From the IMG/VR virus record IMGVR_UViG_2737471845_000031, positions 1-35,029 of that record: a stretch of DNA of 35,029 bases. One strand, written 5' to 3'. Both the position numbers and the translations under genes were made by a program. Shown in pieces: positions 3,722-27,316 of the stretch. How positions within the stretch are numbered: position 1 is the stretch's first letter; the number at the start of each line of letters is the position of its first letter. The notes under the pieces were generated by a model. The model ran no database searches and was not told the DNA's origin. It worked only from the letters and a program-made list of their open reading frames with translations. Source of the DNA: a virus (taxonomy: Duplodnaviria > Heunggongvirae > Uroviricota > Caudoviricetes).

Positions 3722-4872
3722 TTTTTCTTCTCCTTAATCACCGTCGATGTACTGCCATCCGGGTGATAAACCGTGAGTTTCTGAGTTTTTTGTTTTTTCC
3801 CTCTTGTGACTGGCCCCCGTGCCACTTCCAGCTCTGTGGTGTAGCCGCTGTTACGCTCAAACGCATGGCGGGCAGTGATTATCAGCCATGGACCGGATAA
3901 CTGTCCAAAGCCCACCAGTTCAATTTTGTTGCCTGCTGTCAGTTGAGGCGTTCCCGTCAGCGTCAGGGAGCCGTTCTGCTGGTATTCGTTATGTCTGGCC
4001 AGTGCTGAATCCGCTTTAATCCGGGCACTGTCCGGGTCGCTGACGCGGCTGTTAACTTTAAGTGAGTCAGCGCTGGTAACCTTACCGCCTTTGAGCTTTT
4101 TGTCGCTTTCACGGGTACCACCATCAGCTTCGTAGACGATCAGTTTTTTACTGCTGCTTTTCTGGTGTTTTACCTTTGCAGATTTATAGACCCGGTTGAT
4201 GGTGTCACGCAGGGAAAAGCAGGCCACATCCTGCGGTTTTAACTGCCTGACCGGCTCCTGACTGCGCAGTGTGGCCAGATGAGAAAAAATCAACTGGTCA
4301 CTGACCACTTTCACTGCATAACCATACTCGCTGGCCAGCCGGCGCAGAAAACCCACGTCGGTTTCAGCATACTGGGTCACCCGGTCGATTCTGATGGACT
4401 CAATGCTGCCCACCAGTTTCAGCCGGTGCTTTCTGGCAATCCGCCCCGCAACAGCTGCCAGCGTGGTGTTCTCAAAACCACGGCTGGATTTAGTCCGCAG
4501 AGCACTGTTAACCGAGGTGGCCACCCCACGGATAGCGACAACGGACGCGGGCGAACTCACTTCGATCTCGTCTATTGAGAATGTACCGCAGGACAGCAGT
4601 TTCTCGCCCTGATAACCCATTTTCAGCGTCAGCGTGTCACCCTTGCCCGGATACCACTTATCCAGCCAGCGGCCATCGGTGTCGTCCAGCTCCACCTCAA
4701 TGGTATCGGACTCATTTTTGATGTTATCGCTCCAGACCACACGGGTGACATAAGGCGCGATATCAGAGGTGATGTTTTTCTGCAGATACCACAGAGTGAA
4801 TACCGGCGTCAGCACATCGCTGACGCCGGTTAACGCTGATGTGGCTTGCGCAGTACTGTTTATCTCAGCCAT
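3718..4872 (-). CDS. tail/baseplate hub protein (P2 gpD / Mu P-like)
   Basis: 384-aa ORF following the tail protein X-like gene; size and position match the 'late control D' tail proteins. Confidence 0.65.
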   Translation of the reverse strand: MAEINSTAQATSALTGVSDVLTPVFTLWYLQKNITSDIAPYVTRVVWSDNIKNESDTIEVELDDTDGRWLDKWYPGKGDTLTLKMGYQGEKLLSCGTFSIDEIEVSSPASVVAIRGVATSVNSALRTKSSRGFENTTLAAVAGRIARKHRLKLVGSIESIRIDRVTQYAETDVGFLRRLASEYGYAVKVVSDQLIFSHLATLRSQEPVRQLKPQDVACFSLRDTINRVYKSAKVKHQKSSSKKLIVYEADGGTRESDKKLKGGKVTSADSLKVNSRVSDPDSARIKADSALARHNEYQQNGSLTLTGTPQLTAGNKIELVGFGQLSGPWLIITARHAFERNSGYTTELEVARGPVTRGKKQKTQKLTVYHPDGSTSTVIKEKKK

Positions 4873-5075
4873 GGGGCAATATCCTCTTCTGTACGGGCAT
4901 CTTCAGCCTCAATAACCGGGATCAGTAACAACAACCCGGAGGGCAGCACCGGCGTAATGGCCACGTGCGGATTGGCTGCAATAATCCGGGGATAGCCCAG
5001 CGGGTCACCGTAGTACTGCCATGCCAGCGAATCCCAGCGCTCTCCGTCACGGGTAATATGTTCAAGAAACATCAC
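4860..5075 (-). CDS. tail protein X (LysM-like)
   Basis: 71-aa ORF; motif GERWDSLAWQYYGD...IIAANPHV...LPSG resembles the LysM-like P2 gpX family. Confidence 0.6.
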   Translation of the reverse strand: MMFLEHITRDGERWDSLAWQYYGDPLGYPRIIAANPHVAITPVLPSGLLLLIPVIEAEDARTEEDIAPWLR

Positions 5076-5956
5076 ACACTCCTCGTCAGTATTCTGGCGG
5101 CCATTGCACTTAATCCCGGAGACATGCGGTTGAATGCTGTGCCGGCGGCGTTAAGCTGCCCGGAAACGGTATCCAGAGCACCTGCAATATTTCTTTTGTC
5201 CACACCACTCAGCGCCGACTGCGCCTGCTGTACATACGTGGCTGCCTCACTGGCTGTTCTGGCCAGACTGATGGCATCGGGCATGGATTCAGAGAGTGCA
5301 TTAAACGCCGGAATACTTTTCCCCAGAGCGCCGGATATATTACCCAGTCCGCTCATCAGTCCCGGCACACGGGTCAGCGCGACAACGGGGTTACCCTTCA
5401 TTTTCTGCGCCACCCGAACGGCACTGATAGTGGTCTGGAGTACAGACTGCGCCTGTTTCGCATAGTTGACGCCGTTACGGACGAACTGCGCCACCCCGGA
5501 AGGCGATGGAACAGCACCCGATACAGCTCCGGCACCGGGAACCTGCCTGCGTATTGCCGGCGGTTGCAGAGGATTTTTCGGGTCACCGGTGTATTCCCGG
5601 AGAGACACGGTGGCACTGACAGCCAGCACGTTACCGGTGCTGTCTGTCTGCTCGCTGGTTGCGGTCACATCGGTAATCACGAACCAGCCGCGATAGTCAC
5701 CGTTGCCGAAGACCAGCGCCAGTGCCTGATGGGCCTTCATGGCTGTTCGCACTCTCGCCAGCTCCACGTCGGGCACACAATAATGCTGATGGAAGACCAG
5801 GCTTATCTGGATTTCGTCCAGCCTGTCGCCGACAAACTGCAGGCCGGGTTTACCCTCGATGCGGGCATGCTCCGCATAATCGACGCCAAACGTGGCCTCG
5901 AAGCCGTCCCAGTAGGTAATCAGTTCAAACTCAATATCACCCAGTACGGCAAACAT
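5072..5956 (-). CDS. tail protein downstream of tape measure (Mu N / DNA-circulation-like position)
   Basis: 294-aa ORF directly after the tape measure gene with stop/start overlap; the Mu N position. Family assignment is tentative. Confidence 0.45.
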   Translation of the reverse strand: MFAVLGDIEFELITYWDGFEATFGVDYAEHARIEGKPGLQFVGDRLDEIQISLVFHQHYCVPDVELARVRTAMKAHQALALVFGNGDYRGWFVITDVTATSEQTDSTGNVLAVSATVSLREYTGDPKNPLQPPAIRRQVPGAGAVSGAVPSPSGVAQFVRNGVNYAKQAQSVLQTTISAVRVAQKMKGNPVVALTRVPGLMSGLGNISGALGKSIPAFNALSESMPDAISLARTASEAATYVQQAQSALSGVDKRNIAGALDTVSGQLNAAGTAFNRMSPGLSAMAARILTRSV

Positions 5957-8421
5957 CAGCTGTACTCCTTACGTTGTTTCTGAGCCAGCAGACGCTCCAG
6001 CATTTTTTCCAGCTCATGCAGGCTCATATTCAGGGCACCAGCCAGCCCGGCAGGCGCTGCGGTTTCCTTACCATTGAGGAAAAACTGAGGATTAAAGCTG
6101 ACCTGGATACCGCCAGACGCTCCACCGCCGGTTGCAGTTGCGCCACGGCCTGAATATCCGGCAGCCATGATTTCCGGCGACGGGATACGGGGAACATCCG
6201 GTGTCATTTCAGCGGCCAGGCGCTGCCCGGCCAGTGCAGCAAGCGGAGTGGTCCGTTGCAGGCCAATGGCGGCACCCTGCGCGATATTGTCACCAAAGCC
6301 TATAAACACGCGACTCGGTGAATGGATGCCCAGCTTTTCGCTGAACCAGTCACTGATGCTGTCACCCATTCCGGTTATGCTGGTTTTCAGTGACTCCCAT
6401 TTGTTTCTGATGCCATTTATCAGCCCGTCGATAAGATGACCACCGAAGTCGGTGAACTTCGCCGGCAAATCAACGCCGAGATATTTCAGCGCAGCCGCAA
6501 AGGCTTTATAAAGCAGACCCGCCGGAGACCAGTTAACCAGCAGTTTACCAATTCCCGCGATGCCGCCGTTAAAGGCTTCCTGAATGTCAGCCCAGCGCTG
6601 TTTAAACCAGCTACTGACTGCGCCCCAGTTGCGGTAGATAAGGTAAGCTGCTGCCGCGACGGCGGTGATAGCGAGACCGATGGGATTCATCATCAGCGCC
6701 CGGCCAATCCAGAGAAGGGCACGTGCAGCAATCATAAAACCGCGAACGAGGCTGCCCGCCAGAACTTTGCTGAGTTTCAGTCCTCCGCTGGCCAGCCGGC
6801 TGAATCCAGTGACAAGCCAGCGTAATTTGCCACCTTCTCCGAGTGCGGTAGTCAGTCGACGCCAGTTGGTCCGCAGTAAAACAGCATTTTTCCAGACGCT
6901 TACAAAGGGGGAAATAAGGAGATTCAGCCCAAGCTTGAGACCGATAGTGGCCATCCTGAAAGCGAGTAATGCGCCCACAACCTTTATGGTGCTGCTGACG
7001 AGCTGCGGATTTGCCGCTATCCATTTGCCGACGCTGTCCATTAAAGGAATAAATGTTTCACCCAACTGGAGCAAAGCCGGACGCAAGGATTGCCCGATGC
7101 TGATAGCAGAATCATTAAAGCCGATCTGCATTCTGCGCCAGCGACCTTCAAGCGTATCATTCTGCTTTGCAGCATCCTTATCCAGGGTAGACATTGCAGC
7201 CGGAGCATTCATTTCCTGCTTACTGGAAAGGTATTTATCCCAGCCCTGTCGCATTGACAGTAAATGGTTGACAGTCTGAATATCGGTAAAGACCTCAGCC
7301 AGACCAAATGACTCCATGAGTTTCTGCTGACCTTCCTGATCGCCTCTTGCTCCTGCAGCTTTCCATTGCTGCAAAAACGCTTTGCCTTTACTGTCGATAA
7401 AACGGTTGGCAATCATCAGTGAAGCTTCGTACTGCGAAAAACCCTGAGCGACGTAATTCTGCATTGACCCCTGGTAATCCACCCCGGCTTTAGCATATTT
7501 CTGGATGGTATCTCCGCGGCCCATTGCTGCCAGCCAGTTGGACATATTGGTGACCGCTTCCTCTGCAGAGCCACTACCTTTACCGACCTCCAGACTGGCA
7601 ACAATCTGGGTAATCGCATCTTTTCCATAAATGCCACGGGCAGCGAAGGCTTTAGCCATACCGGGTAATGCTTTTGCCATATCCTTCAGCTCAAATGACC
7701 CAAGTTTGGCTCCTGTTGCCGCAATACCAAATGCCTGTTCAAGTTCTTTCGCATCAGTGATTCTGAGTGCATCGCTGAAGGCATAAGTCATTTTGGCAAG
7801 GTCGGTCATATCGGCTTTGGTTGCTGTAGCGGTCTTTCCAAGCATCTCTGCAAACGTTGCTGCCCGTTCGGGGGCCATACCATCAGCAACTAATTGTCCG
7901 ACTCCCCCTAACAGAGACTCCTGCAGTTGGTTAACCTTCAGCGAGGCCTGTCTGATAGCCAGGCCAATTGCACGTTCCTGTTTTGCATCCAGGTCTCCTG
8001 TGACACTGATATCCCGTAACTGTGATTCAAACGAGGCATATTGTTTAACCGAGGCCATGACCGGTGCGCCCAGCGTTCTGCCAATAGCATAGGTTTCTGC
8101 ACCCTGACCATAGAGCGCCAGGCGGTTAGCCTTCAACGCATCACCGGTGGCTGATACTGCTGACAGACGGCGCTGCTGACGTTCAATTTGCTCCATGGTG
8201 CGGCTTACCCGCAGCAACTCGCTGTTGAGATGCTGCATCCGGGAAGAACCCAGTTGACCATAACGTTCTGTTGCCCGGGTTAAGGCATTCTGGCGTTCCT
8301 GCAGACGGCGGGAGGTATCACCAAGGGAATCAAGGGCGCGTCGGGTGCCACTGACGGCTGAGCGGAAGCTGCTCCCGACAATGCCGCCAATAATGACGCC
8401 GACTGAAAATTCACTGGCCAC
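5956..8421 (-). CDS. tail tape measure protein
   Basis: 821-aa ORF, the longest in the tail module, mostly helical/Ala-rich with hydrophobic segments; located after the chaperone gene. Start is GTG at 8421 (AGGA RBS). Confidence 0.85.
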   Translation of the reverse strand: MASEFSVGVIIGGIVGSSFRSAVSGTRRALDSLGDTSRRLQERQNALTRATERYGQLGSSRMQHLNSELLRVSRTMEQIERQQRRLSAVSATGDALKANRLALYGQGAETYAIGRTLGAPVMASVKQYASFESQLRDISVTGDLDAKQERAIGLAIRQASLKVNQLQESLLGGVGQLVADGMAPERAATFAEMLGKTATATKADMTDLAKMTYAFSDALRITDAKELEQAFGIAATGAKLGSFELKDMAKALPGMAKAFAARGIYGKDAITQIVASLEVGKGSGSAEEAVTNMSNWLAAMGRGDTIQKYAKAGVDYQGSMQNYVAQGFSQYEASLMIANRFIDSKGKAFLQQWKAAGARGDQEGQQKLMESFGLAEVFTDIQTVNHLLSMRQGWDKYLSSKQEMNAPAAMSTLDKDAAKQNDTLEGRWRRMQIGFNDSAISIGQSLRPALLQLGETFIPLMDSVGKWIAANPQLVSSTIKVVGALLAFRMATIGLKLGLNLLISPFVSVWKNAVLLRTNWRRLTTALGEGGKLRWLVTGFSRLASGGLKLSKVLAGSLVRGFMIAARALLWIGRALMMNPIGLAITAVAAAAYLIYRNWGAVSSWFKQRWADIQEAFNGGIAGIGKLLVNWSPAGLLYKAFAAALKYLGVDLPAKFTDFGGHLIDGLINGIRNKWESLKTSITGMGDSISDWFSEKLGIHSPSRVFIGFGDNIAQGAAIGLQRTTPLAALAGQRLAAEMTPDVPRIPSPEIMAAGYSGRGATATGGGASGGIQVSFNPQFFLNGKETAAPAGLAGALNMSLHELEKMLERLLAQKQRKEYS

Positions 8422-8513
8422 GGTGGCTATCCTCTGAAAGCAAAAAAACGGAAGGGAAGTGTCTGAACCCCATGCAGAACAGCCGCGACTGGCGGCTGTT
8501 AAGTGATACGTTG

Positions 8514-8771
8514 TTACTGATTGTCGCCGAACTCGCTTTTGATTTGCTCTTCAGCCTGCTCCAGCCACATCTCCAGATCGTCAGTATCGAGGGCATCAAT
8601 CTCCCCCGGCTGAAACCTGAACCATCTCGCCAGCAGGCCCTGCGCCTGCATCAGTGTTTTTGTCGCTCTTGCCCAGCCCAGTGATTTTCTGAAATCGTTT
8701 CTGCAGCTCCATATAGTCGGCAAGATCCATGTTATCGAGGTCTTCCGGGAGGATACCGGTGCTACGGGCAA
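8514..8771 (-). CDS. putative frameshift extension of the tail assembly chaperone (E'-like)
   Basis: Second ORF overlapping the 3' 176 nt of the chaperone gene. Frame opens at 8771 directly after a stop, has no ATG, and encodes an acidic tail (DDLEMWLEQAEEQIKSEFGDNQ). It is in the +1 frame relative to the chaperone. Confidence 0.3.
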   Translation of the reverse strand: MPVAPVSSRKTSITWILPTIWSCRNDFRKSLGWARATKTLMQAQGLLARWFRFQPGEIDALDTDDLEMWLEQAEEQIKSEFGDNQ

Positions 8772-21886: not shown

Positions 21887-22233
21887 AGTCCTGTTGCCAC
21901 AGCCAGACAGATCGCTGCAACAATCAGTGCACGGCGGATTAACGCAGCAGCAAACACAAGGTGAAGGCCGGTCTGCACAGGGAAACGCCCTTCAGCCATC
22001 AGCCTGTCGTCATGTTTCAGGTACTGACCGGGACGGGCTTTGGGGAAGAGCGAACGGTCAAGCCAGTAACCCAGCACTGCTGCCAGCGTGATGAGTGCCA
22101 GCTTGTAGATCACAACAGGCAACTGCTGTGGCGAGACCAGAGCGATGGTGCCCAGCAACAGCACTGAGGTCAGCAGCCAGCCGCTGAGGCGAGGTTTTTT
22201 AACAGGGGGAATGAATTTTTTCAGGCTTTTCAT
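21883..22233 (-). CDS. holin-like membrane protein
   Basis: ~116 aa from ATG 22233 (AAGGAG RBS); three predicted TM segments; first gene of the lysis cassette. The ORF-track start at 22266 is less likely. Confidence 0.55.
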   Translation of the reverse strand: MKSLKKFIPPVKKPRLSGWLLTSVLLLGTIALVSPQQLPVVIYKLALITLAAVLGYWLDRSLFPKARPGQYLKHDDRLMAEGRFPVQTGLHLVFAAALIRRALIVAAICLAVATGL

Positions 22234-22252
22234 GTGTGTCTCCTTGTCTGGT

Positions 22253-22291
22253 GGAGACAGCATCACAAATACAGGGCGCGAAGGATTTTAA
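22253..22291 (-). promoter_or_regulatory. candidate activator-dependent late promoter and leader upstream of lysis genes
   Basis: Minus-strand TTAAAATC, 23 nt, CTGTCTCC, then ACCAGACAAGGAGACACAC-ATG; CTGTCTCC can pair with GGAGACA that includes the SD. Poor -35. Confidence 0.45.
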
Positions 22292-22363
22292 AGCGCGTTA
22301 AGAGAGCCGGGGATACGGGGTGTGCAGGATAAACGATGAATTATTCACAGAGGAGAATACGAT

Positions 22364-23107
22364 ATGACGCACACACTGAATCCGGTCATCACTGTCACTG
22401 TGTCCGGTCCTGTGGGCAGCGGTAAAAGTTACGTACTGGCGCGGATAGAAGAGATGGTGAAACAGGAACTCGGAAACAGCGTCATTGTCGATGCTGCTGA
22501 CGTGGAGAATGAGCGCCGTATGAGTGGCGATGATCTGACGACCTGGCAGAAGCCACGGGCTGGCACAGTGATCAGGCTGGAGGAATACACGGGACAGGGC
22601 CTGTTGTCATACGGCGAGGAGCGTATCTGTCGGACGAATGAGCTGCTGGATGTTATATGCCCCACGGGCCGGCAACCCTGGATACTGCCCGATGCACTGC
22701 ATGCCACCATTGCGGCACTGATGACAGTTTACGATCAGGAGCTGCTCATGAAGGAGTTACGTAAACTCGCTGGTCAGCCAACAGAATGTTTTTCGGCCCC
22801 GAAGTACGGGAAGCAGGAACACATCCCGGTGAACACAATCCCCGTTAACCAGCCTCCCCGGTTCTTCGACGAATACATTCTGACACCGGAAAATAAAGCT
22901 GAGCATGAAGAGATCAAAGCGGCGTTGTTCCGGGAAATCAGGAAGATTGCTGAAATGCAGCTGGAGGGCGGGCTGGACAGAGTGATGGCGAGAGGAGAAT
23001 GGGAATCGCTGTTTGAAAAAGTTTCCCCGGAATTGCTTCCCCTCGCACTGGCTATCGGGATTATGCAGACAACGGATAAACCTCACTTACGTTCATTAAA
23101 CACGTAA
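22364..23107 (+). CDS. hypothetical P-loop (Walker A) protein
   Basis: 247-aa ORF, ATG 22364 with AGGAGA RBS; N-terminal VSGPVGSGKSYVL Walker A-like motif; no further recognisable domain. Divergent from the late operon. Confidence 0.5.
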   Translation: MTHTLNPVITVTVSGPVGSGKSYVLARIEEMVKQELGNSVIVDAADVENERRMSGDDLTTWQKPRAGTVIRLEEYTGQGLLSYGEERICRTNELLDVICPTGRQPWILPDALHATIAALMTVYDQELLMKELRKLAGQPTECFSAPKYGKQEHIPVNTIPVNQPPRFFDEYILTPENKAEHEEIKAALFREIRKIAEMQLEGGLDRVMARGEWESLFEKVSPELLPLALAIGIMQTTDKPHLRSLNT

Positions 23108-23487
23108 CGCATAATCCGGGATACGCATTCAGCGATGACTGCATTTTCACCGGTTTTTACTGCATCCAGAAGCGACTCTTTAAATGGCACGGGCCGGGGC
23201 TGCAGAAAGGTCGGCATGGCATTGAGCAGACAGAGCGTTTTTTCCGTGAGGACGACATCAGCCGCTCCCACAGCCAGCAACTGAGAGTAACGAATATAGC
23301 TGTTATCCCGAAGCCATATCAGCGTATCAATAAAATACCGGCACTTTTTCTGGTCGTGATCAACCTGGTCCGGGATATCGAAAAAACCAGAATAAATCAA
23401 AACCTGAGGTACCGGATGCGTGTTCAGTAATCGGCAGAATATTTTGCCGGTGAGTACATAAAAATCATCATTTAAGGAGTGCATCAT
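23083..23487 (-). CDS. hypothetical protein, paralog B of the 23951-24331 gene
   Basis: 134-aa ORF filling the gap between flanking plus-strand ORFs. Alignable blocks with paralog A (IFCRLLNTHP ~ IFGRLYESFP, FIDTLIWLRDNSY ~ FLDTVDWLKNSGY, VVLTEKTLCLLNA ~ AVLTAKGLEVLNA). Confidence 0.45.
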   Translation of the reverse strand: MMHSLNDDFYVLTGKIFCRLLNTHPVPQVLIYSGFFDIPDQVDHDQKKCRYFIDTLIWLRDNSYIRYSQLLAVGAADVVLTEKTLCLLNAMPTFLQPRPVPFKESLLDAVKTGENAVIAECVSRIMRYVFNERK

Positions 23488-23701
23488 GAATCCCCGATTA
23501 ACGTTAACAGAACATCAGCGCCGTGCTGAAGCAGTGAACAATGTTCTGGAAGATATTATCCGGTTACATCGCGGAGAACTGAGTATCTGTCGTGCCACTG
23601 TTCATTTTCAGGAAATACAAAAGCAGTTTGATACTTCTGTTTTTGCAGAAGGGCTCACTTACGCCCTGGACCAGATAAGGTCAGAAAATCACCCCGGATA
23701 A
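23486..23701 (+). CDS. hypothetical small protein
   Basis: 71-aa ORF with AAGGAG RBS 6 nt upstream; its start overlaps the divergent paralog B start (CATG). It may instead be non-coding leader. Confidence 0.35.
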   Translation: MNPRLTLTEHQRRAEAVNNVLEDIIRLHRGELSICRATVHFQEIQKQFDTSVFAEGLTYALDQIRSENHPG

Positions 23702-23757
23702 TCCCTAAACCGCATTAACAGAAATCCCACTATCCCTGCCGCATCATGAAAGAACGA

Positions 23758-23785
23758 CCAGCCCGGCACCCGAAAGCCGGGCTGG
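23758..23785 (-). terminator. GC-rich hairpin (candidate minus-strand terminator)
   Basis: Perfect 10-bp inverted repeat CCAGCCCGGC / GCCGGGCTGG with 8-nt loop; minus-strand downstream sequence is TCGTTCTTTCATG. Confidence 0.4.
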
Positions 23786-23890
23786 CCATCGTCCCACAGG
23801 AATGCACTGTGAGCCGACCGAGGTTCAGTCAGTCTCGTGAGACCAGACTAGCCTGCCATATTTTTAATAATTGTAAAATGTTTACAGATT

Positions 23891-23992
23891 ATGAAAACGC
23901 AGACATTACCCATCGTTCCATGGATTGGTGGCAAACGCTGCCTTGCGATATTACATAAGACCACGAGACATATATTGCAGACCTATTCCTAG
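23891..23992 (+). pseudogene. diverged 5' remnant of a second Dam methyltransferase gene
   Basis: Encodes MKTQTLPIVPWIGGKRCLAILHK..., matching the Dam N-terminus MKEQSLPIVPWIGGKRRLAKHILPQ; stops after 33 codons and runs into the 3' end of the paralog A gene. Preceded by a ~90-nt leader ~70% identical to the leader of the intact dam. Confidence 0.5.
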
Positions 23993-24331
23993 AGTCTGGC
24001 TAACCAGTGATCGCAACGCTTCTTTCCCTTCAATTTTTATAGAGTCAGATATTCTGGCCCCCAACGGTTTTTCCAGACTTCCAGGCGTAGCGTTTAATAC
24101 CTCAAGACCTTTAGCCGTTAGCACTGCGTTGTGGATCCCCCCAGAACTACGCGCCCCGATTAAATAGCCACTGTTTTTAAGCCAGTCTACGGTATCAAGA
24201 AAAAAAGTAAGTTCATTCTGTCTAACGATATCAACTGCCTTTATATCAATTTTGACGGGGAAAGATTCGTAGAGTCTCCCAAATATCTCACCAACTATTT
24301 CATTAAACCGCTCAATATTTTTTGGGGCCAT
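23951..24331 (-). CDS. hypothetical protein, paralog A (possible winged-helix protein)
   Basis: Likely ~126 aa from ATG 24331 (GGGAG upstream); the ORF-track start at 24415 would cover a hairpin. Contains an LT-x-KG-like segment (AVLTAKGLEVL). Divergent from dam. Confidence 0.5.
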   Translation of the reverse strand: MAPKNIERFNEIVGEIFGRLYESFPVKIDIKAVDIVRQNELTFFLDTVDWLKNSGYLIGARSSGGIHNAVLTAKGLEVLNATPGSLEKPLGARISDSIKIEGKEALRSLVSQTLGIGLQYMSRGLM

Positions 24332-24378
24332 GGTATTAGTAACTCCCTTTAATTGTCGCCCATGAAATATGCAAATAA

Positions 24379-24411
24379 CATGAAAAGAGCGACTCACCTT
24401 GTGCAGCGAAC
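24379..24411 (-). terminator. hairpin (candidate minus-strand terminator or insulator) between dam leader and paralog A
   Basis: 13-bp inverted repeat GACTCACCTTGTG / CACAAGGCGAGTC (one mismatch) with 7-nt loop; minus-strand downstream sequence GCTCTTTTCATGTTATTTGC. Confidence 0.4.
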
Positions 24412-24525
24412 ACAAGGCGAGTCATCAACTTACAGGTATGAGCTGTGAGTCAACCGAGGCTCTTCCGTTCTCGAGAACAAGGGAAGCCTATCGCATTTTC
24501 ATCTAATGAAAAAGGCTTACAGATA

Positions 24526-25290
24526 ATGAAAGAACAATCTTTACCCATCGTCCCCTGGATTGGGGGAAAACGTCGTCTGGCCAAACACATTCTGCCTCAG
24601 TTCCCACTCCATACCTGCTATGTGGAGCCATTCTGCGGCGCAGCAGCACTTTATTTTCTCAAGACTCCCAGCAAGATCGAAGTCATTAACGATATCAACG
24701 GTGAACTGGTAAATCTGTATCGGGTAGTAAAGCATCATCTGGAAGAATTTGTCCGCCAATTCAAATGGGCGCTGGTTAGCCGGCAGATCTACAAATGGCT
24801 GCAGATCACCCCGGAAGAAACACTGACGGATATCCAGCGTGCGGCACGGTTCTACTACCTCCAGAAGCAGGCGTTTGGGGGCAAGGTGGCAGAGCACAGC
24901 TTCGGCACCTCCACCACCTCCCCGCCACGCTTCAACCTGCTACGGATTGAAGAAGAACTGTCAGCGGCACACCTGCGGCTTTCCAGAACGGTGATAGAAC
25001 ACATGGACTGGCACCAGTGCATTAAGCGTTATGACCGTCCGCACACGCTGTTCTACTGTGATCCGCCCTATCTGGGGACGGAAGGCTATGGTGTGGATTT
25101 TCCTGAAGAGAACTACACACTACTCGCAGAACTGGCACGGTGCATCAGAGGAAAGATGATTATCTCGGTGAATGACATTCCGCAGATGCGTCGGGTGTTC
25201 ACTGAACTGAACATACAGACGGTGAATATCAACTACAGTCTGGCGGGGAAACCCACGCCACGCCGTGAACTGGTAATCTGCAACTTCTGA
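24526..25290 (+). CDS. dam: DNA N6-adenine methyltransferase (Dam family)
   Basis: 254 aa from ATG 24526; N-terminus LPIVPWIGGKRRL, FCGAAAL SAM-binding-type motif and catalytic DPPY, as in Dam-family N6-adenine methyltransferases. No adjacent restriction endonuclease gene. Confidence 0.85.
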   Translation: MKEQSLPIVPWIGGKRRLAKHILPQFPLHTCYVEPFCGAAALYFLKTPSKIEVINDINGELVNLYRVVKHHLEEFVRQFKWALVSRQIYKWLQITPEETLTDIQRAARFYYLQKQAFGGKVAEHSFGTSTTSPPRFNLLRIEEELSAAHLRLSRTVIEHMDWHQCIKRYDRPHTLFYCDPPYLGTEGYGVDFPEENYTLLAELARCIRGKMIISVNDIPQMRRVFTELNIQTVNINYSLAGKPTPRRELVICNF

Positions 25291-25319
25291 ACAAAACCGG
25301 AAAGCACAATGCTTTCCGG
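25291..25319 (-). terminator. intrinsic terminator between convergent dam and repressor genes
   Basis: Perfect 10-bp stem CCGGAAAGCA / TGCTTTCCGG with 3-nt loop, followed on the minus strand by TTTTGT; sits right after the dam stop. Confidence 0.55.
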
Positions 25320-25405
25320 TAAACCAAACAACTTCCACTATGTCACTGGCGATGTTTTCTGAAAGCATCCAGATCAACCACGCGCCCTTTGTGTCCAGGT
25401 CAAAA

Positions 25406-25744
25406 TCAGCCTGCGAGTTTGCTTGGTTTGGGTTGAATGAAGACTTTGCCGACCTCAAGAATTGCCCTCCGTTGTTCGGGGCTCATTTCGTCGAATGCAT
25501 CCATTAACTCTTTCTTTTCTTGTGACACATAAGGTGCAACAACAGGCTGACTCCGCACCCCAGTAACTACATACAAAATATCTACACCGATTTCTGATAG
25601 TGCAGATAACTGCACTGCAGTAGGAGAAGTGCGATCTTTTTCCCAATCAATGAAAGTTCTCTTTGCCACACCTATAGCATCAGCCAACCCTTGCTGTGTA
25701 AGAGATAGACGCTCTCTTTCTTCTTTAATACGTAACCCGATCAT
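25406..25744 (-). CDS. XRE-family HTH lysogeny repressor
   Basis: Likely 113 aa from ATG 25744; HTH region LSLTQQGLADAIGVAKRTFIDWEKDRTSP. Divergent from the early operon, as for Mu c/ner. The ORF-track start 25897 would overlap the early gene by 53 nt. Confidence 0.75.
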   Translation of the reverse strand: MIGLRIKEERERLSLTQQGLADAIGVAKRTFIDWEKDRTSPTAVQLSALSEIGVDILYVVTGVRSQPVVAPYVSQEKKELMDAFDEMSPEQRRAILEVGKVFIQPKPSKLAG

Positions 25745-25768
25745 GTGAGTTTTTCTGCACTCTTTAAG

Positions 25769-25797
25769 TTGACTGGTGAGATAATCTGCACCATAAT
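25769..25797 (+). promoter_or_regulatory. early promoter (sigma70-like) with candidate operator repeats
   Basis: TTGACT (25769-25774), 17-nt spacer, CATAAT (25792-25797), ~47 nt upstream of the first early gene. TCTGCAC occurs twice (25754, 25785) and ATAATCT twice. Confidence 0.55.
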
Positions 25798-25844
25798 CTA
25801 TCACACATAAGGCAAACATCATTGCATCAACAAAGGAGACAACG

Positions 25845-26033
25845 ATGACTGCAGAACAAGTCAAAGCTCTCTTCCGCCAGCGCGGGATCACTTTCACCCG
25901 CTGGGCAGAAGAAAACGGCTACAACCGCAATGAGGTATACCGCGTTCTCAATGGGCAGACCAAAGCCCGTTACGGTAAATCCCATGAAATCGCCGTGAAG
26001 TTGGGGCTGAAATCAACAGCTCAGGCAGCCTGA
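25845..26033 (+). CDS. Cro/Ner-like small DNA-binding regulator
   Basis: 62-aa ORF, AAGGAG RBS 6 nt upstream, first gene of the early operon divergent from the repressor; helical basic protein. Confidence 0.55.
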   Translation: MTAEQVKALFRQRGITFTRWAEENGYNRNEVYRVLNGQTKARYGKSHEIAVKLGLKSTAQAA

Positions 26034-26085
26034 AGATTTTGAGTCTTTGTAAAAGGTTATCACATATCGCAAAAGAGGTATGCAG

Positions 26086-26394
26086 ATGAGTAAGACGAAT
26101 GTTTCAAGCTCCGGCAGTCGCATCCTCCGGGTACTCAAAGCGCTGCGCGGTCATGCCCTGAACGGTATTTCCAACGGTGAACTGGCGGCAGCACTGCACG
26201 AGTCACTGGCAAACATCAACCGGGCACTCAACACCCTCATTGAAGAAGGGTTGGCCCTGAAACTGGAAAACGGGCGTTTCGCGCCGGGCATCCAGTTACT
26301 GCAGATCGCTATGGCCCACAGTAACGAGATGGCACGTGCACAGGATCGCATTAACGAAATCAACCAACGTGTCATTTCAGGTAGTCGTTTGTAA
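26086..26394 (+). CDS. winged-helix DNA-binding protein
   Basis: ~102 aa from ATG 26086; HTH-like segment ISNGELAAALHESLANINRALNTLIEEGLA. Confidence 0.45.
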   Translation: MSKTNVSSSGSRILRVLKALRGHALNGISNGELAAALHESLANINRALNTLIEEGLALKLENGRFAPGIQLLQIAMAHSNEMARAQDRINEINQRVISGSRL

Positions 26395-26404
26395 GGAGTA
26401 ATAA

Positions 26405-27316
26405 ATGGGACGCACCAAATCACCGATTAACACTGAACTGAACGCCGAGGTACCGCTGTCGGATGATCTCAATGTCAGTCTGAACGCCATGACACAGCAT
26501 CGCATGGAGATCATGCAGCAGTTTGGCGATGGTCAGCCCTATGAGCGTGATCGCATAGTTCATGAGGCTCGGTTTTATATGGCACAGAGCGCTGAGGCCA
26601 TGCTGGAAGCAGGTAAACGACTTATTATTCTCAAAGAAAATGAACCACACGGGGACTTTGTTGGAATTGTAGAAGAACAACTTGGTCTGCATGTGCGCGC
26701 AGCACAACGAATGATGAAAGCATCTTTGAAATACCTTTCACCAAAACTAGAGCCAAAAGCGACAACGTTGTCGCTTTTAGGTAAGGCAAAATTATTTGAA
26801 CTTGTTGCTGAAGATGACGACGACCTTGCTGAACTGGCCGACGGCGGCACAGTCGCAGGACTGACGCTTGACGATGTTGATCGCATGTCAGTACGTGAAT
26901 TGCGTCAGGCCCTGCGCGAAGCGCGCGAAACCAACGCAGCACAACAGCGCGTACTCGCCGACAAAAATGAAAAAATAGACTCACTCTCCACCAGACTGGA
27001 GAAGAAATCCCGTATTCAGCCGCCTGAGCCTGATGAGGAGGTTAAGAAGCTGCGGGCGGAAGTGACAGCATTAGCGGTTGAGGCGGAATCTGCCATCGCC
27101 GTTCGACTGTCCAGCGCTTTTGAGACACTGTGCGCATATTGTGCTGAAAACATGATTGATACCCCCAGAGACTTCATGGCAGGCCTGGTCTGTCAACTGG
27201 AAAGCACAGCGCGTAGCCTGCGCTCCACATTTGACCTGCCGGACGAGCCAACAGGCGATGTCGCGCCTTCATGGCTGACTGAGCCGACGCCACAGATTAA
27301 CGGGCTGGAGGCATAA
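26405..27316 (+). CDS. hypothetical early protein with acidic and coiled-coil regions
   Basis: 303-aa ORF, AAGGAG RBS 6 nt upstream; located just before the transposase gene. Confidence 0.5.
   Translation: MGRTKSPINTELNAEVPLSDDLNVSLNAMTQHRMEIMQQFGDGQPYERDRIVHEARFYMAQSAEAMLEAGKRLIILKENEPHGDFVGIVEEQLGLHVRAAQRMMKASLKYLSPKLEPKATTLSLLGKAKLFELVAEDDDDLAELADGGTVAGLTLDDVDRMSVRELRQALREARETNAAQQRVLADKNEKIDSLSTRLEKKSRIQPPEPDEEVKKLRAEVTALAVEAESAIAVRLSSAFETLCAYCAENMIDTPRDFMAGLVCQLESTARSLRSTFDLPDEPTGDVAPSWLTEPTPQINGLEA

What the first reader, a model, noticed from the sequence alone, without database searches (positions are those of the whole stretch)
23083..24331. Two diverged paralogous small proteins, both on the minus strand
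The proteins at 23083-23487 and 23951-24331 share alignable blocks along their length but are only roughly 30% identical, so this is an old duplication or a recombination between related modules. Both have an LT-x-K-G-like segment suggestive of a winged-helix DNA-binding fold.
Basis: seen in the sequence. Interest (0 to 1): 0.65.

Follow-up and report, generated by a model that had tools for sequence, protein, structure and literature searches.

The report
Two winged-helix phage accessory paralogs
Two small genes in a Mu-like E. coli prophage are real but distant relatives from a large, unstudied family of phage accessory proteins, were brought side by side by recombination rather than local duplication, and probably do not control the neighbouring DNA methylase gene.

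Summary
ORF A (23083-23487, -) and ORF B (23951-24331, -) are intact and 28% identical over 120 residues (E=4e-12). Both match phrog_2266 (unknown function). AlphaFold models of both give the same fold: a winged helix with a vestigial second helix, followed by three C-terminal helices.

They are not a local duplication. Each has hundreds of closer relatives than the other. ORF B arrived with a diverged second copy of the dam leader and dam 5' end, leaving an 18-codon dam stump. It occurs in 6 of 5426 complete E. coli genomes, against 499 for ORF A.

The window is a BcepMu-like transposable prophage, and this region is its low-GC accessory slot.

The family is large (1876 clusters at 50% identity). 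It usually appears as a lone counter-oriented gene inside late operons of unrelated phages. In 72 of 131 loci it has a small basic partner gene head-to-head, usually with start codons sharing CATG. ORF A has this partner (the 71-aa ORF at 23486-23701); ORF B has lost it.

A DNA-binding role at the dam leader is not supported. The putative recognition helix is acidic, dam is nearby in about 11 of 131 loci, and the leader travels with dam without this family. The function remains inferred.

The parts
23083..23487 (-). ORF A, 134 aa. A divergent member of the phrog_2266 winged-helix family and the copy that keeps the family's head-to-head partner gene.
   Evidence: ORF list. phrog_2266 E=8e-45. 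AF2 pLDDT 86.1 with the same topology as ORF B. The ORF A plus 71-aa ORF segment (23083-23701) is present in 499 of 5426 complete E. coli genomes at 95% identity or more.
23951..24331 (-). ORF B, 126 aa. A member of the main clade of the same family, an orphan without a partner gene, carried on an imported segment.
23486..23701 (+). 71-aa ORF (p71, phrog_4490). This is the partner gene of ORF A. It is divergent, and the two start codons overlap by 2 nt.
   Evidence: phrog_4490 E=5e-50. An HMM built only from the small divergent neighbours of family members in other phages hits p71 at E=4.5e-7 as a single target. The partner is present head-to-head in 72 of 131 loci.
22364..23107 (+). 247-aa ORF (phrog_3787). 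It has an N-terminal P-loop-like motif and a C-terminal partner-like domain (residues 176-244, 22889-23104). It is convergent with ORF A, and their 3' ends overlap by 25 nt.
   Evidence: Only weak P-loop hits. The partner HMM hits residues 176-244 at E=1e-11.
23702..23890 (+). dam leader copy 1. This is the resident copy, about 96% identical to the single-copy ABU 83972 type.
   Evidence: Alignments. Structured RNA fold, z=-4.9.
23891..23946 (+). dam 5' stump. It holds 18 codons (MKTQTLPIVPWIGGKRCL) of the resident dam, cut off 4 nt from ORF B's stop codon.
   Evidence: Read from the sequence. Alignment to ABU 83972 and PhiKM. Homology ends at 23946. The same stump is present in Salmonella L010.
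24332..24525 (+). dam leader copy 2. It is imported with ORF B and about 70% identical to copy 1 in the shared 151 bp.
24526..25290 (+). Intact dam (D12-class adenine methyltransferase). It is mosaic: 72-74% identical to the ABU type up to about 24630, mostly 85-97% over the rest of dam, and 97-100% beyond it.
   Evidence: Pfam PF02086 E=1e-27. RefSeq CDS. Sliding identity.

Best explanation
ORF A and ORF B are two non-sister members of a large, uncharacterised family of phage-borne accessory proteins, catalogued only as phrog_2266. The fold is an N-terminal helix, a winged helix whose second helix is vestigial, and three C-terminal helices.

They lie in the low-GC accessory slot between the lysis cassette and the repressor of a BcepMu-like transposable prophage of E. 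coli. They became neighbours by mosaic recombination. A segment holding ORF B, a diverged dam leader and the first 100-200 nt of dam was joined to the resident ORF A - p71 - leader - dam module. The left junction is 4 nt from ORF B's stop codon and the right crossover is inside dam. The order of events, insertion or later deletions, is not settled.

Shown: the paralogy, the shared predicted fold, the mosaic structure, and the accessory, patchy distribution. Also shown is the family's usual architecture. The gene is counter-oriented inside an operon and stands head-to-head with a small, mostly basic partner gene that runs in line with that operon. The two start codons usually share CATG.

Inferred, at about 30% confidence: the family protein is a protein-binding (non-canonical, acidic) winged-helix factor made from its own promoter, probably in the lysogen. 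The partner is made when the surrounding operon is transcribed, and that same transcription runs antisense across the family gene. The partner would then bind or counteract the family protein. Together this would form a two-state cassette, for example a prophage-expressed exclusion or regulatory factor plus the phage's own antidote. On this reading ORF A with p71 is a complete cassette. The 247-aa protein may be a second partner-domain protein. ORF B is a partnerless copy. Neither protein is a dedicated regulator of dam.
For: Paralogy and family: (1876 clusters at E<=1e-3, almost all stand-alone proteins of 135-155 aa).
Host element: BcepMu-like prophage.
Mosaic.
Not sister genes. No second copy near any other member.
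Accessory nature: GC 42-46% against 56% for the late genes. ORF B is in 6 of 5426 genomes and the ORF A plus p71 segment in 499. Unrelated genes occupy the same slot in KP12, and different neighbours occur in Serratia and Brenneria phages.
Insertion sites elsewhere: the family sits between terL and gpW, between tail tube and chaperone, or next to lysis genes in unrelated phages (neighbour roles were read from size and order, not from domain hits).
Partner.
Counter-orientation: in 38 of 54 distinct partner-bearing contexts both large neighbours are on the opposite strand.
Charge: family median pI 5.0, partner median pI 8.6. The recognition-helix segment has mean net charge -4.1 and the wing has no conserved basic residue.
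Against: No experiment or expression data were available, and no interaction prediction could be run.

Overall acidity does not exclude DNA binding; many MarR and PadR regulators are acidic overall (my own knowledge).

In this prophage the family genes point the same way as the late genes and the repressor. So the 'lysogen versus lytic' timing is extrapolated from other phage types.

Fifty-nine of 131 loci lack a detectable partner, so the protein can work without one.

No convincing sigma-70 promoter was found for either ORF. Terminator-like hairpins downstream of family genes are not enriched (27% against 22% in random windows).

Among close orthologues non-synonymous changes outnumber synonymous ones: 6 to 2 for ORF A and 6 to 1 for ORF B. 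The counts are too small to interpret.
Confidence: 0.5

Rival explanations
1. Both proteins are winged-helix DNA-binding transcription factors that bind the dam leader or hairpin regions and control dam, in the manner of a divergently transcribed regulator and its target.
For: The fold is a winged helix. The best Foldseek hits are Rrf2/CymR, MntR and MarR regulators, though weak at E 0.05-0.3. ORF B is divergent from dam across a 194-nt conserved, structured leader. C-terminal helices could serve as a dimerisation module.
Against: Across 268 members, positions 37-42 at the N-terminus of the putative recognition helix are 30-60% Asp/Glu. That segment has net charge -4.1. The wing is variable with no conserved Arg or Lys. 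Helix 2 of the helix-turn-helix is reduced to one turn plus an unconserved insert of 0-25 residues. dam is within 6 kb in about 11 of 131 loci. The dam match to KP12 begins inside the leader, and KP12's divergent gene is unrelated. In the common E. coli form ORF A is separated from dam by p71. The two leader hairpins differ in sequence but keep their pairing. That fits an RNA structure or terminator better than a shared protein operator.
Confidence: 0.2
2. The pair arose by tandem duplication in this phage lineage followed by long divergence.
For: There are two family members 460 bp apart on the same strand, flanked by two copies of the dam leader and dam 5' end.
Against: ORF A is 298th of 310 among ORF B's BLASTP hits, and ORF B is 120th of 261 among ORF A's. 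Pseudomonas proteins are 34-49% identical to ORF B, against 25-28% for ORF A. The flanking repeats are about 70% identical at DNA level while the ORFs share only 28% protein identity. The resident homology ends 4 nt from ORF B's stop codon, which is the signature of a junction. Single-copy forms of both types exist: ABU 83972 has A only and Salmonella has B only.
Confidence: 0.05
3. The family protein and its partner form a toxin-antitoxin or abortive-infection module. The small basic partner would be the toxic or effector part and the acidic winged-helix protein its neutraliser.
For: The two genes are tightly linked, with opposite charge (pI 5.0 against 8.6). They sit as accessory genes in prophages. 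The partner domain is also fused to a P-loop-like protein next door. Both are patchy among close relatives.
Against: No PADLOC, Pfam or NCBIfam hit for either protein. The genes are divergent, not co-transcribed as in known type II systems (my own knowledge). The partner is about 75 aa, aligns as a conserved 75-80-aa block and matches no known toxin family. Many family members lack a partner, including ORF B, which would leave an orphan antitoxin.
Confidence: 0.15
4. The protein is the late-gene activator of BcepMu-like phages, analogous to Mu C, because it sits just upstream of the lysis cassette in the same orientation.
For: In Serratia prophages the 146-aa homologue lies directly upstream of the holin gene on the same strand. 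In E. coli, Salmonella and Brenneria relatives a family member is always present between the repressor and the holin gene, in the late orientation.
Against: tblastn of ORF B against 50,697 phage records found one hit, in a Helicobacter phage, so BcepMu itself and KP12 show no detectable homologue. In most other phages the gene is antisense inside late operons. The Salmonella form lacks ORF A and the common E. coli form lacks ORF B, so neither is individually essential.
Confidence: 0.07

Closest known systems
PHROG family phrog_2266 (unknown function)
   Same: Both ORFs match over their full length, at E=8e-45 and 1e-35.
   Different: The family has no described function, structure or gene context.
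Pfam DUF2513 (PF10711) / B. subtilis YjcQ (PDB 2hgc)
   Same: Some relatives are labelled 'DUF2513 domain-containing' by UniRef. YjcQ is a Foldseek hit, with 31% identity over 78 columns and TM 0.54 on the target. The link between YjcQ and DUF2513 is from my own memory.
   Different: Neither ORF reaches any Pfam threshold. Only 3 of 26 relatives touch DUF2513, at E>=0.035. The N-terminal NIExF / LYExFP motifs and the C-terminal helices were not shown to be shared with DUF2513.
MarR / PadR / Rrf2 / MntR winged-helix transcription factors
   Same: Overall winged-helix topology. An LTxxG-type motif at the end of the wing (a PadR-like feature, from my own knowledge). Helices after the wing that could mediate oligomerisation.
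   Different: Helix 2 is vestigial, the putative recognition helix is acidic and the wing has no conserved basic residue. No significant sequence match was found; the best PDB profile hit is E=0.19.
Protein-binding winged-helix domains (cullin WHB, RPA32 C-terminal domain, Scc1/ScpB/JetB kleisin-partner domains, Rpn9)
   Different: No sequence relationship and unrelated biology. This is a structural analogy only.
Phage morons (independently transcribed accessory genes inserted between conserved phage genes)
   Same: Low GC, patchy presence among close relatives, and insertion at module junctions, often on the opposite strand to the neighbours. The general concept is reviewed for Burkholderia phages, including BcepMu, in PMC2920897.
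   Different: No enriched terminator and no clear promoter. The cassette has a second gene that is in line with the host operon and shares the start-codon tetranucleotide. I have not seen that described.
Self-immunity pairs in prophage exclusion systems, e.g. P22 sieB/esc (my own knowledge; analogy for the proposed mechanism only)
   Same: The proposed logic is the same: a prophage-expressed factor that would harm lytic growth, plus a phage-made antidote.
   Different: No homology and a different gene layout. Nothing about exclusion was tested here.

Membership tests
phrog_2266 | Significant full-length match to the family profile | tested here: met
   ORF A E=8.1e-45 (residues 2-133 on profile 1-142 of 144). 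ORF B E=9.6e-36 (residues 3-122 on profile 2-143).
Winged-helix fold | alpha1-beta1-alpha2-alpha3-beta2-wing-beta3 topology, with structural similarity to solved winged-helix domains | tested here: met
Pfam DUF2513 (PF10711) | Score at or above Pfam's gathering threshold | tested here: not met
   No Pfam hit for ORF A or ORF B at E<=0.1. Among 26 relatives, 3 hit DUF2513 with a best E of 0.035.
DNA-binding wHTH transcription factor (MarR/PadR/Rrf2-like) | Polar or basic recognition helix and a basic wing able to contact DNA | tested here: not met
   Positions 37-42 are 30-60% D/E. Segment 38-53 with its preceding insert has mean net charge -4.1. The wing (54-72) has net charge -0.4 and no conserved K or R.
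DNA-binding wHTH transcription factor (MarR/PadR/Rrf2-like) | Cognate operator (dyad or direct repeats) in its own or its target's promoter, and binding to it | not testable with these tools
   The two genes have no intergenic region. The only symmetry seen at the shared start is the pair of Shine-Dalgarno sequences, GGAG...CATG...CTCC. Binding needs gel-shift or footprinting assays.
dam-linked regulator | Consistent co-occurrence with dam and its leader | tested here: not met
   dam is detected within 6 kb in about 11 of 131 loci. The dam match to KP12 starts inside the leader while KP12's divergent gene is unrelated.
Phage moron | Present or absent among otherwise collinear relatives, and atypical base composition | tested here: met
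   ORF B is in 6 genomes and the ORF A plus p71 segment in 499 of 5426 E. coli genomes. The Salmonella form lacks ORF A. GC is 0.42-0.46 against 0.56 for the late genes.
Phage moron | Own promoter and terminator flanking the gene | tested here: inconclusive
   No convincing sigma-70 match directly upstream of either ORF. Terminator-like hairpins downstream of family genes occur at 27%, against 22% in random windows.
Family-plus-partner head-to-head cassette (defined here) | Small partner ORF divergent from the family gene, with abutting or overlapping start codons | tested here: met
   Met for ORF A: the p71 start at 23486 and the ORF A start at 23487 overlap by 2 nt, and p71 matches the partner HMM at E=4.5e-7. 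Not met for ORF B: only an 11-codon reading frame lies opposite its start (read).
Type II toxin-antitoxin or known defence system | Match to a known toxin, antitoxin or defence protein model, and a co-directional operon | tested here: not met
   No PADLOC hit for ORF A, ORF B or p71, and only chance-level hits for p247. The genes are divergent.

The most novel reading that the evidence does not exclude
The family protein and its small basic partner form a widespread phage accessory system that has not been described. It would be a head-to-head two-gene cassette whose start codons share one CATG. The surrounding operon's transcription would silence the acidic winged-helix gene by antisense or collision while expressing the partner. 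This would be a built-in lysogeny-versus-lytic switch for an exclusion or regulatory factor and its antidote. The window would then hold one complete cassette (ORF A with p71), a P-loop protein carrying a second partner domain, and an orphan copy (ORF B).
Probability: 0.2. Interest if true: 0.65.

Novelty: new member of a known kind. Interest (0 to 1): 0.4.

Why it matters
The two ORFs themselves are ordinary mosaic accessory genes of a common E. coli prophage. What deserves attention is the family behind them.

The family has well over a thousand sequence clusters and a confidently predicted but atypical winged-helix fold. It has no Pfam, NCBIfam or defence-system annotation. Its gene layout recurs across lambda-like, Mu-like and P2-like structural modules: counter-oriented inside late operons and start-to-start with a small basic partner.

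If the pair proves to be a functional switch or an exclusion-and-antidote unit, it would add a new class to the list of prophage accessory systems. It would be easy to test, because about 9% of complete E. coli genomes carry ORF A and p71, including the well-studied strain ABU 83972. The result also warns against reading 'winged helix next to a gene' as 'regulator of that gene'.

Tried and rejected
Domain and family searches:
- Pfam, NCBIfam and PADLOC scans of ORF A, ORF B and p71 gave nothing significant. p247 and several neighbours from other loci gave only weak hits below curated cut-offs.
- A profile search of PDB sequences gave a best E of 0.19.
- Rfam on 22000-26500 at E<=1 gave no match.

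Structure searches:
- Foldseek against PDB and BFVD gave only weak hits, E>0.04.
- The afdb50 library was not available.
The second job went to ORF A instead.
- The homologue search for p71 returned only close E. coli relatives, so the partner family was built from locus ORFs.

Sequence-signal tests:
- The promoter and terminator scan gave no more sites than shuffled sequence.
- Terminator-like hairpins downstream of family genes are not enriched over random windows.
- dN/dS between close orthologues rests on too few substitutions to mean anything.

Literature:
- Searches for DUF2513, YjcQ, and moron plus winged helix found nothing on function. The BcepMu papers gave only general moron background.

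Ideas rejected:
- Spurious ORFs, rejected on conservation and confident folds.
- In-situ duplication.
- Late-gene activator.
- KP12_281 as a hidden family member (hhalign probability 0.5%).
Full report
**1. What is in the sequence**

The minus strand carries two intact ORFs at the stated coordinates: ORF A (23083-23487, 134 aa) and ORF B (23951-24331, 126 aa). BLASTP gives 28% identity over 120 residues, E=4e-12. Both match one PHROG profile end to end: phrog_2266, unknown function, E=8e-45 and 1e-35. Neither reaches any Pfam, NCBIfam or PADLOC model.

**2. The host element**

The 3.65-kb region is 100% identical to chromosomal prophages of several E. coli strains. It is 93.5% identical over 75% of its length to Escherichia phage PhiKM (genus Bcepmuvirus).

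- Leftwards lie the holin, SLT lysin, terminase, portal and tail genes, all on the minus strand.
- Rightwards lie dam, a cI-like repressor (minus strand), then Ner-like and IclR-like proteins and the transposase.
- The finding therefore sits in the accessory slot between the late genes and the immunity/early region of a BcepMu-like transposable prophage.
- This slot has 42-50% GC, against 56% for the late genes.

**3. Fold**

AlphaFold2 on a 26-sequence alignment gives a confident model of ORF B (pLDDT 91.6, pTM 0.87). Its elements are helix 5-23, strand 28-31, a one-turn helix 32-34, helix 38-53, a beta hairpin 57-71, and helices 73-79, 90-99 and 103-125. ORF A gives the same order of elements (pLDDT 86.1).

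It is the family's best-conserved block.

**4. Is it a DNA binder?**

Probably not in the canonical way.

- In 268 distinct members, the segment holding the putative recognition helix and the variable insert before it has a mean net charge of -4.1.
- Positions 37-42 are 30-60% Asp/Glu.
- The wing is variable, with no conserved basic residue.
- Helix 2 of the helix-turn-helix is replaced by an unconserved loop of 0-25 residues.
- The family's median pI is 5.0.
- The strongest conservation lies in N-terminal motifs (N5, I6, F9, L20, Y21, F24, P25) and in core residues (W50, L51, G55, Y56).

This is inference from sequence, not a binding test.

**5. How the two copies came to be neighbours**

Most E. 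coli carriers have p247 - ORF A - p71 - leader - dam with one family gene. The ORF A plus p71 segment occurs in 499 of 5426 complete genomes, while ORF B occurs in 6.

Against the single-copy form (ABU 83972 type):
- Homology runs to 23946, which is 18 codons into dam and 4 nt from ORF B's stop codon.
- It resumes at 24432, at only 72-74% identity until about 24630.
- It is then mostly 85-97% over the rest of dam and 97-100% beyond it.

The window thus holds a dam stump (23891-23946) and two copies of a 151-bp leader/dam-5' block. The resident copy is 96% identical to the ABU type, the imported copy 72%, and the two copies are 70% identical to each other.

A Salmonella BcepMu-like prophage has the same stump - ORF B - leader 2 - dam structure but lacks 22830-23689, which covers the p247 C-terminus, ORF A and p71.

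ORF A ranks 298th of 310 among ORF B's relatives, and ORF B ranks 120th of 261 among ORF A's. None of about 119 other loci where a member was called has a second member within 6 kb. So the pair results from recombination between related modules, not from local duplication. Which of the three forms is ancestral is open.

**6. The family at large**

A profile search of 1.84 billion representatives finds 1876 clusters at E<=1e-3 and 1118 at E<=1e-10. Nearly all are stand-alone proteins of 135-155 aa.

In 115 loci from viral and genome collections, plus those from encoding contigs, the gene sits at module junctions of unrelated phage types:
- between the large terminase and gpW/portal of lambda-like head modules;
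- between the tail tube and the chaperone/tape measure of Mu/P2-like tails;
- next to holin, spanin or small-terminase genes;
- inside a Mu-like head module.

The functional labels for these neighbours were inferred from size and order, not from domain hits. The gene is usually the only one on its strand.

In enterobacterial BcepMu-like phages the slot content varies. Serratia has repressor - 327 aa - 206 aa - family gene - holin and no dam. In Brenneria, dam is convergent with the family gene. Klebsiella KP12 has an unrelated 188-aa gene there. dam is within 6 kb in about 11 of 131 loci.

**7. A partner gene**

ORF A's start codon (23487, minus strand) and that of the 71-aa ORF p71 (23486, plus strand, phrog_4490) overlap by 2 nt.

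In other phages a 70-95-aa ORF lies in the same head-to-head position. An HMM built only from those ORFs hits p71 at E=4.5e-7. It also hits the C-terminus of the neighbouring 247-aa protein (residues 176-244) at E=1e-11.

After iteration, 72 of 131 loci have the partner. It is always directly divergent, and in most loci the two start codons share one CATG. Each gene's Shine-Dalgarno sequence is encoded inside the other gene's first codons.

The partner runs in line with the surrounding operon, while the family gene runs against it. Partners are mostly basic, with a median pI of 8.6. ORF B has no partner; only 11 codons are open opposite its start (read).

In this window the plus-strand genes p247, p71, the dam stump and dam frame both family genes in the same counter-oriented way.

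**8. Proposed mechanism (inferred)**

The layout forces the two promoters to face each other across the shared start. Transcription of the host operon would cross the family gene in antisense and then express the partner.

I therefore favour, at roughly 30% confidence, a two-state cassette. An acidic, protein-binding winged-helix factor would be made from its own promoter. A small basic partner, made with the surrounding operon, would bind or counteract it. Candidate roles are an exclusion or regulatory function plus a self-antidote.

Rivals and my estimates:
- classical DNA-binding regulator, 0.2;
- toxin-antitoxin or abortive-infection pair, 0.15;
- late activator, 0.07;
- in-situ duplication as the origin, 0.05.

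None of these could be tested physically here.

**9. Verdict**

The dam-regulator reading is not supported. The paralogues are new members of a catalogued but unstudied phage family, juxtaposed by mosaicism. The family's conserved head-to-head partner architecture is the part worth following up.

Noticed in passing
window 23702-23890 and 24332-24525 (+): The two dam leaders are homologous and fold into the same four-hairpin architecture (MFE -48.8 and -47.8 kcal/mol, z=-4.9 and -4.3). The first and third hairpins differ in sequence but keep their pairing. There is no Rfam match. On the minus strand the first hairpin is followed by a short T-run, so it looks like a terminator facing ORF B (leader 2) or ORF A (leader 1). 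This may be an undescribed cis-regulatory RNA of phage dam genes.
   Followed up: partly
window 23486-23701 (+) and the start overlap at 23485-23488: The 71-aa ORF (phrog_4490) belongs to a family of small, mostly basic proteins. These sit head-to-head with phrog_2266 genes in 72 of 131 loci, usually sharing a CATG at the two start codons.
   Followed up: yes
window 22364-23107 (+): The 247-aa protein (phrog_3787) combines an N-terminal Walker-A-like motif (GPVGSGKS), which gives only weak P-loop hits, with a C-terminal domain homologous to the small partner family (residues 176-244, E=1e-11). Its 3' end overlaps ORF A's 3' end by 25 nt.
   Followed up: partly
window 23891-23946 (+), reading on to 23992: An 18-codon stump of the resident dam gene (MKTQTLPIVPWIGGKRCL) runs into the antisense of ORF B's 3' end and stays open for 33 codons. 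The same stump is present in a Salmonella prophage.
   Followed up: yes
L010 (Salmonella enterica contig DAAXYS010000083.1) against window 22830-23689: The Salmonella relative lacks the p247 C-terminus, ORF A and p71. Its 158-aa protein is 92% identical to the N-terminal part of p247 and ends close to the sequence that follows p71's stop codon in the window.
   Followed up: partly
window 25296-25320: An 11-bp-stem GC-rich hairpin with a T-run lies between the convergent dam (ends 25290) and repressor (ends 25406) genes. It is probably a shared, bidirectional terminator.
   Followed up: no
window 24526-25290 (dam): dam itself is mosaic relative to the common E. coli allele: 72-74% identity up to about 24630, 88-96% in the middle, 85-86% at 25031-25230, then 97-100%.
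   Followed up: partly
L004-L007 (Pseudomonas tohonis and related contigs), about 3800-8700: Here the family gene lies between a divergent 328-aa protein and a downstream 767-aa protein. Neither has Pfam or PADLOC annotation, and both are next to a Bro-N-like gene. This may be a different accessory island.
   Followed up: no
partner ORFs in L043, L056, L069, L083, L089, L111 and others (about 5770-6002, -): One subfamily of partner proteins ends in a cysteine-rich tail (for example RCRCCRCC), which suggests metal binding. p71 lacks this tail.
   Followed up: no
ORF A, ORF B and p71 against close orthologues (L002, L003, L010): Among close orthologues non-synonymous changes equal or outnumber synonymous ones: ORF A 6 to 2, ORF B 6 to 1, p71 7 to 3. 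The counts are too small to separate relaxed from diversifying selection.
   Followed up: partly
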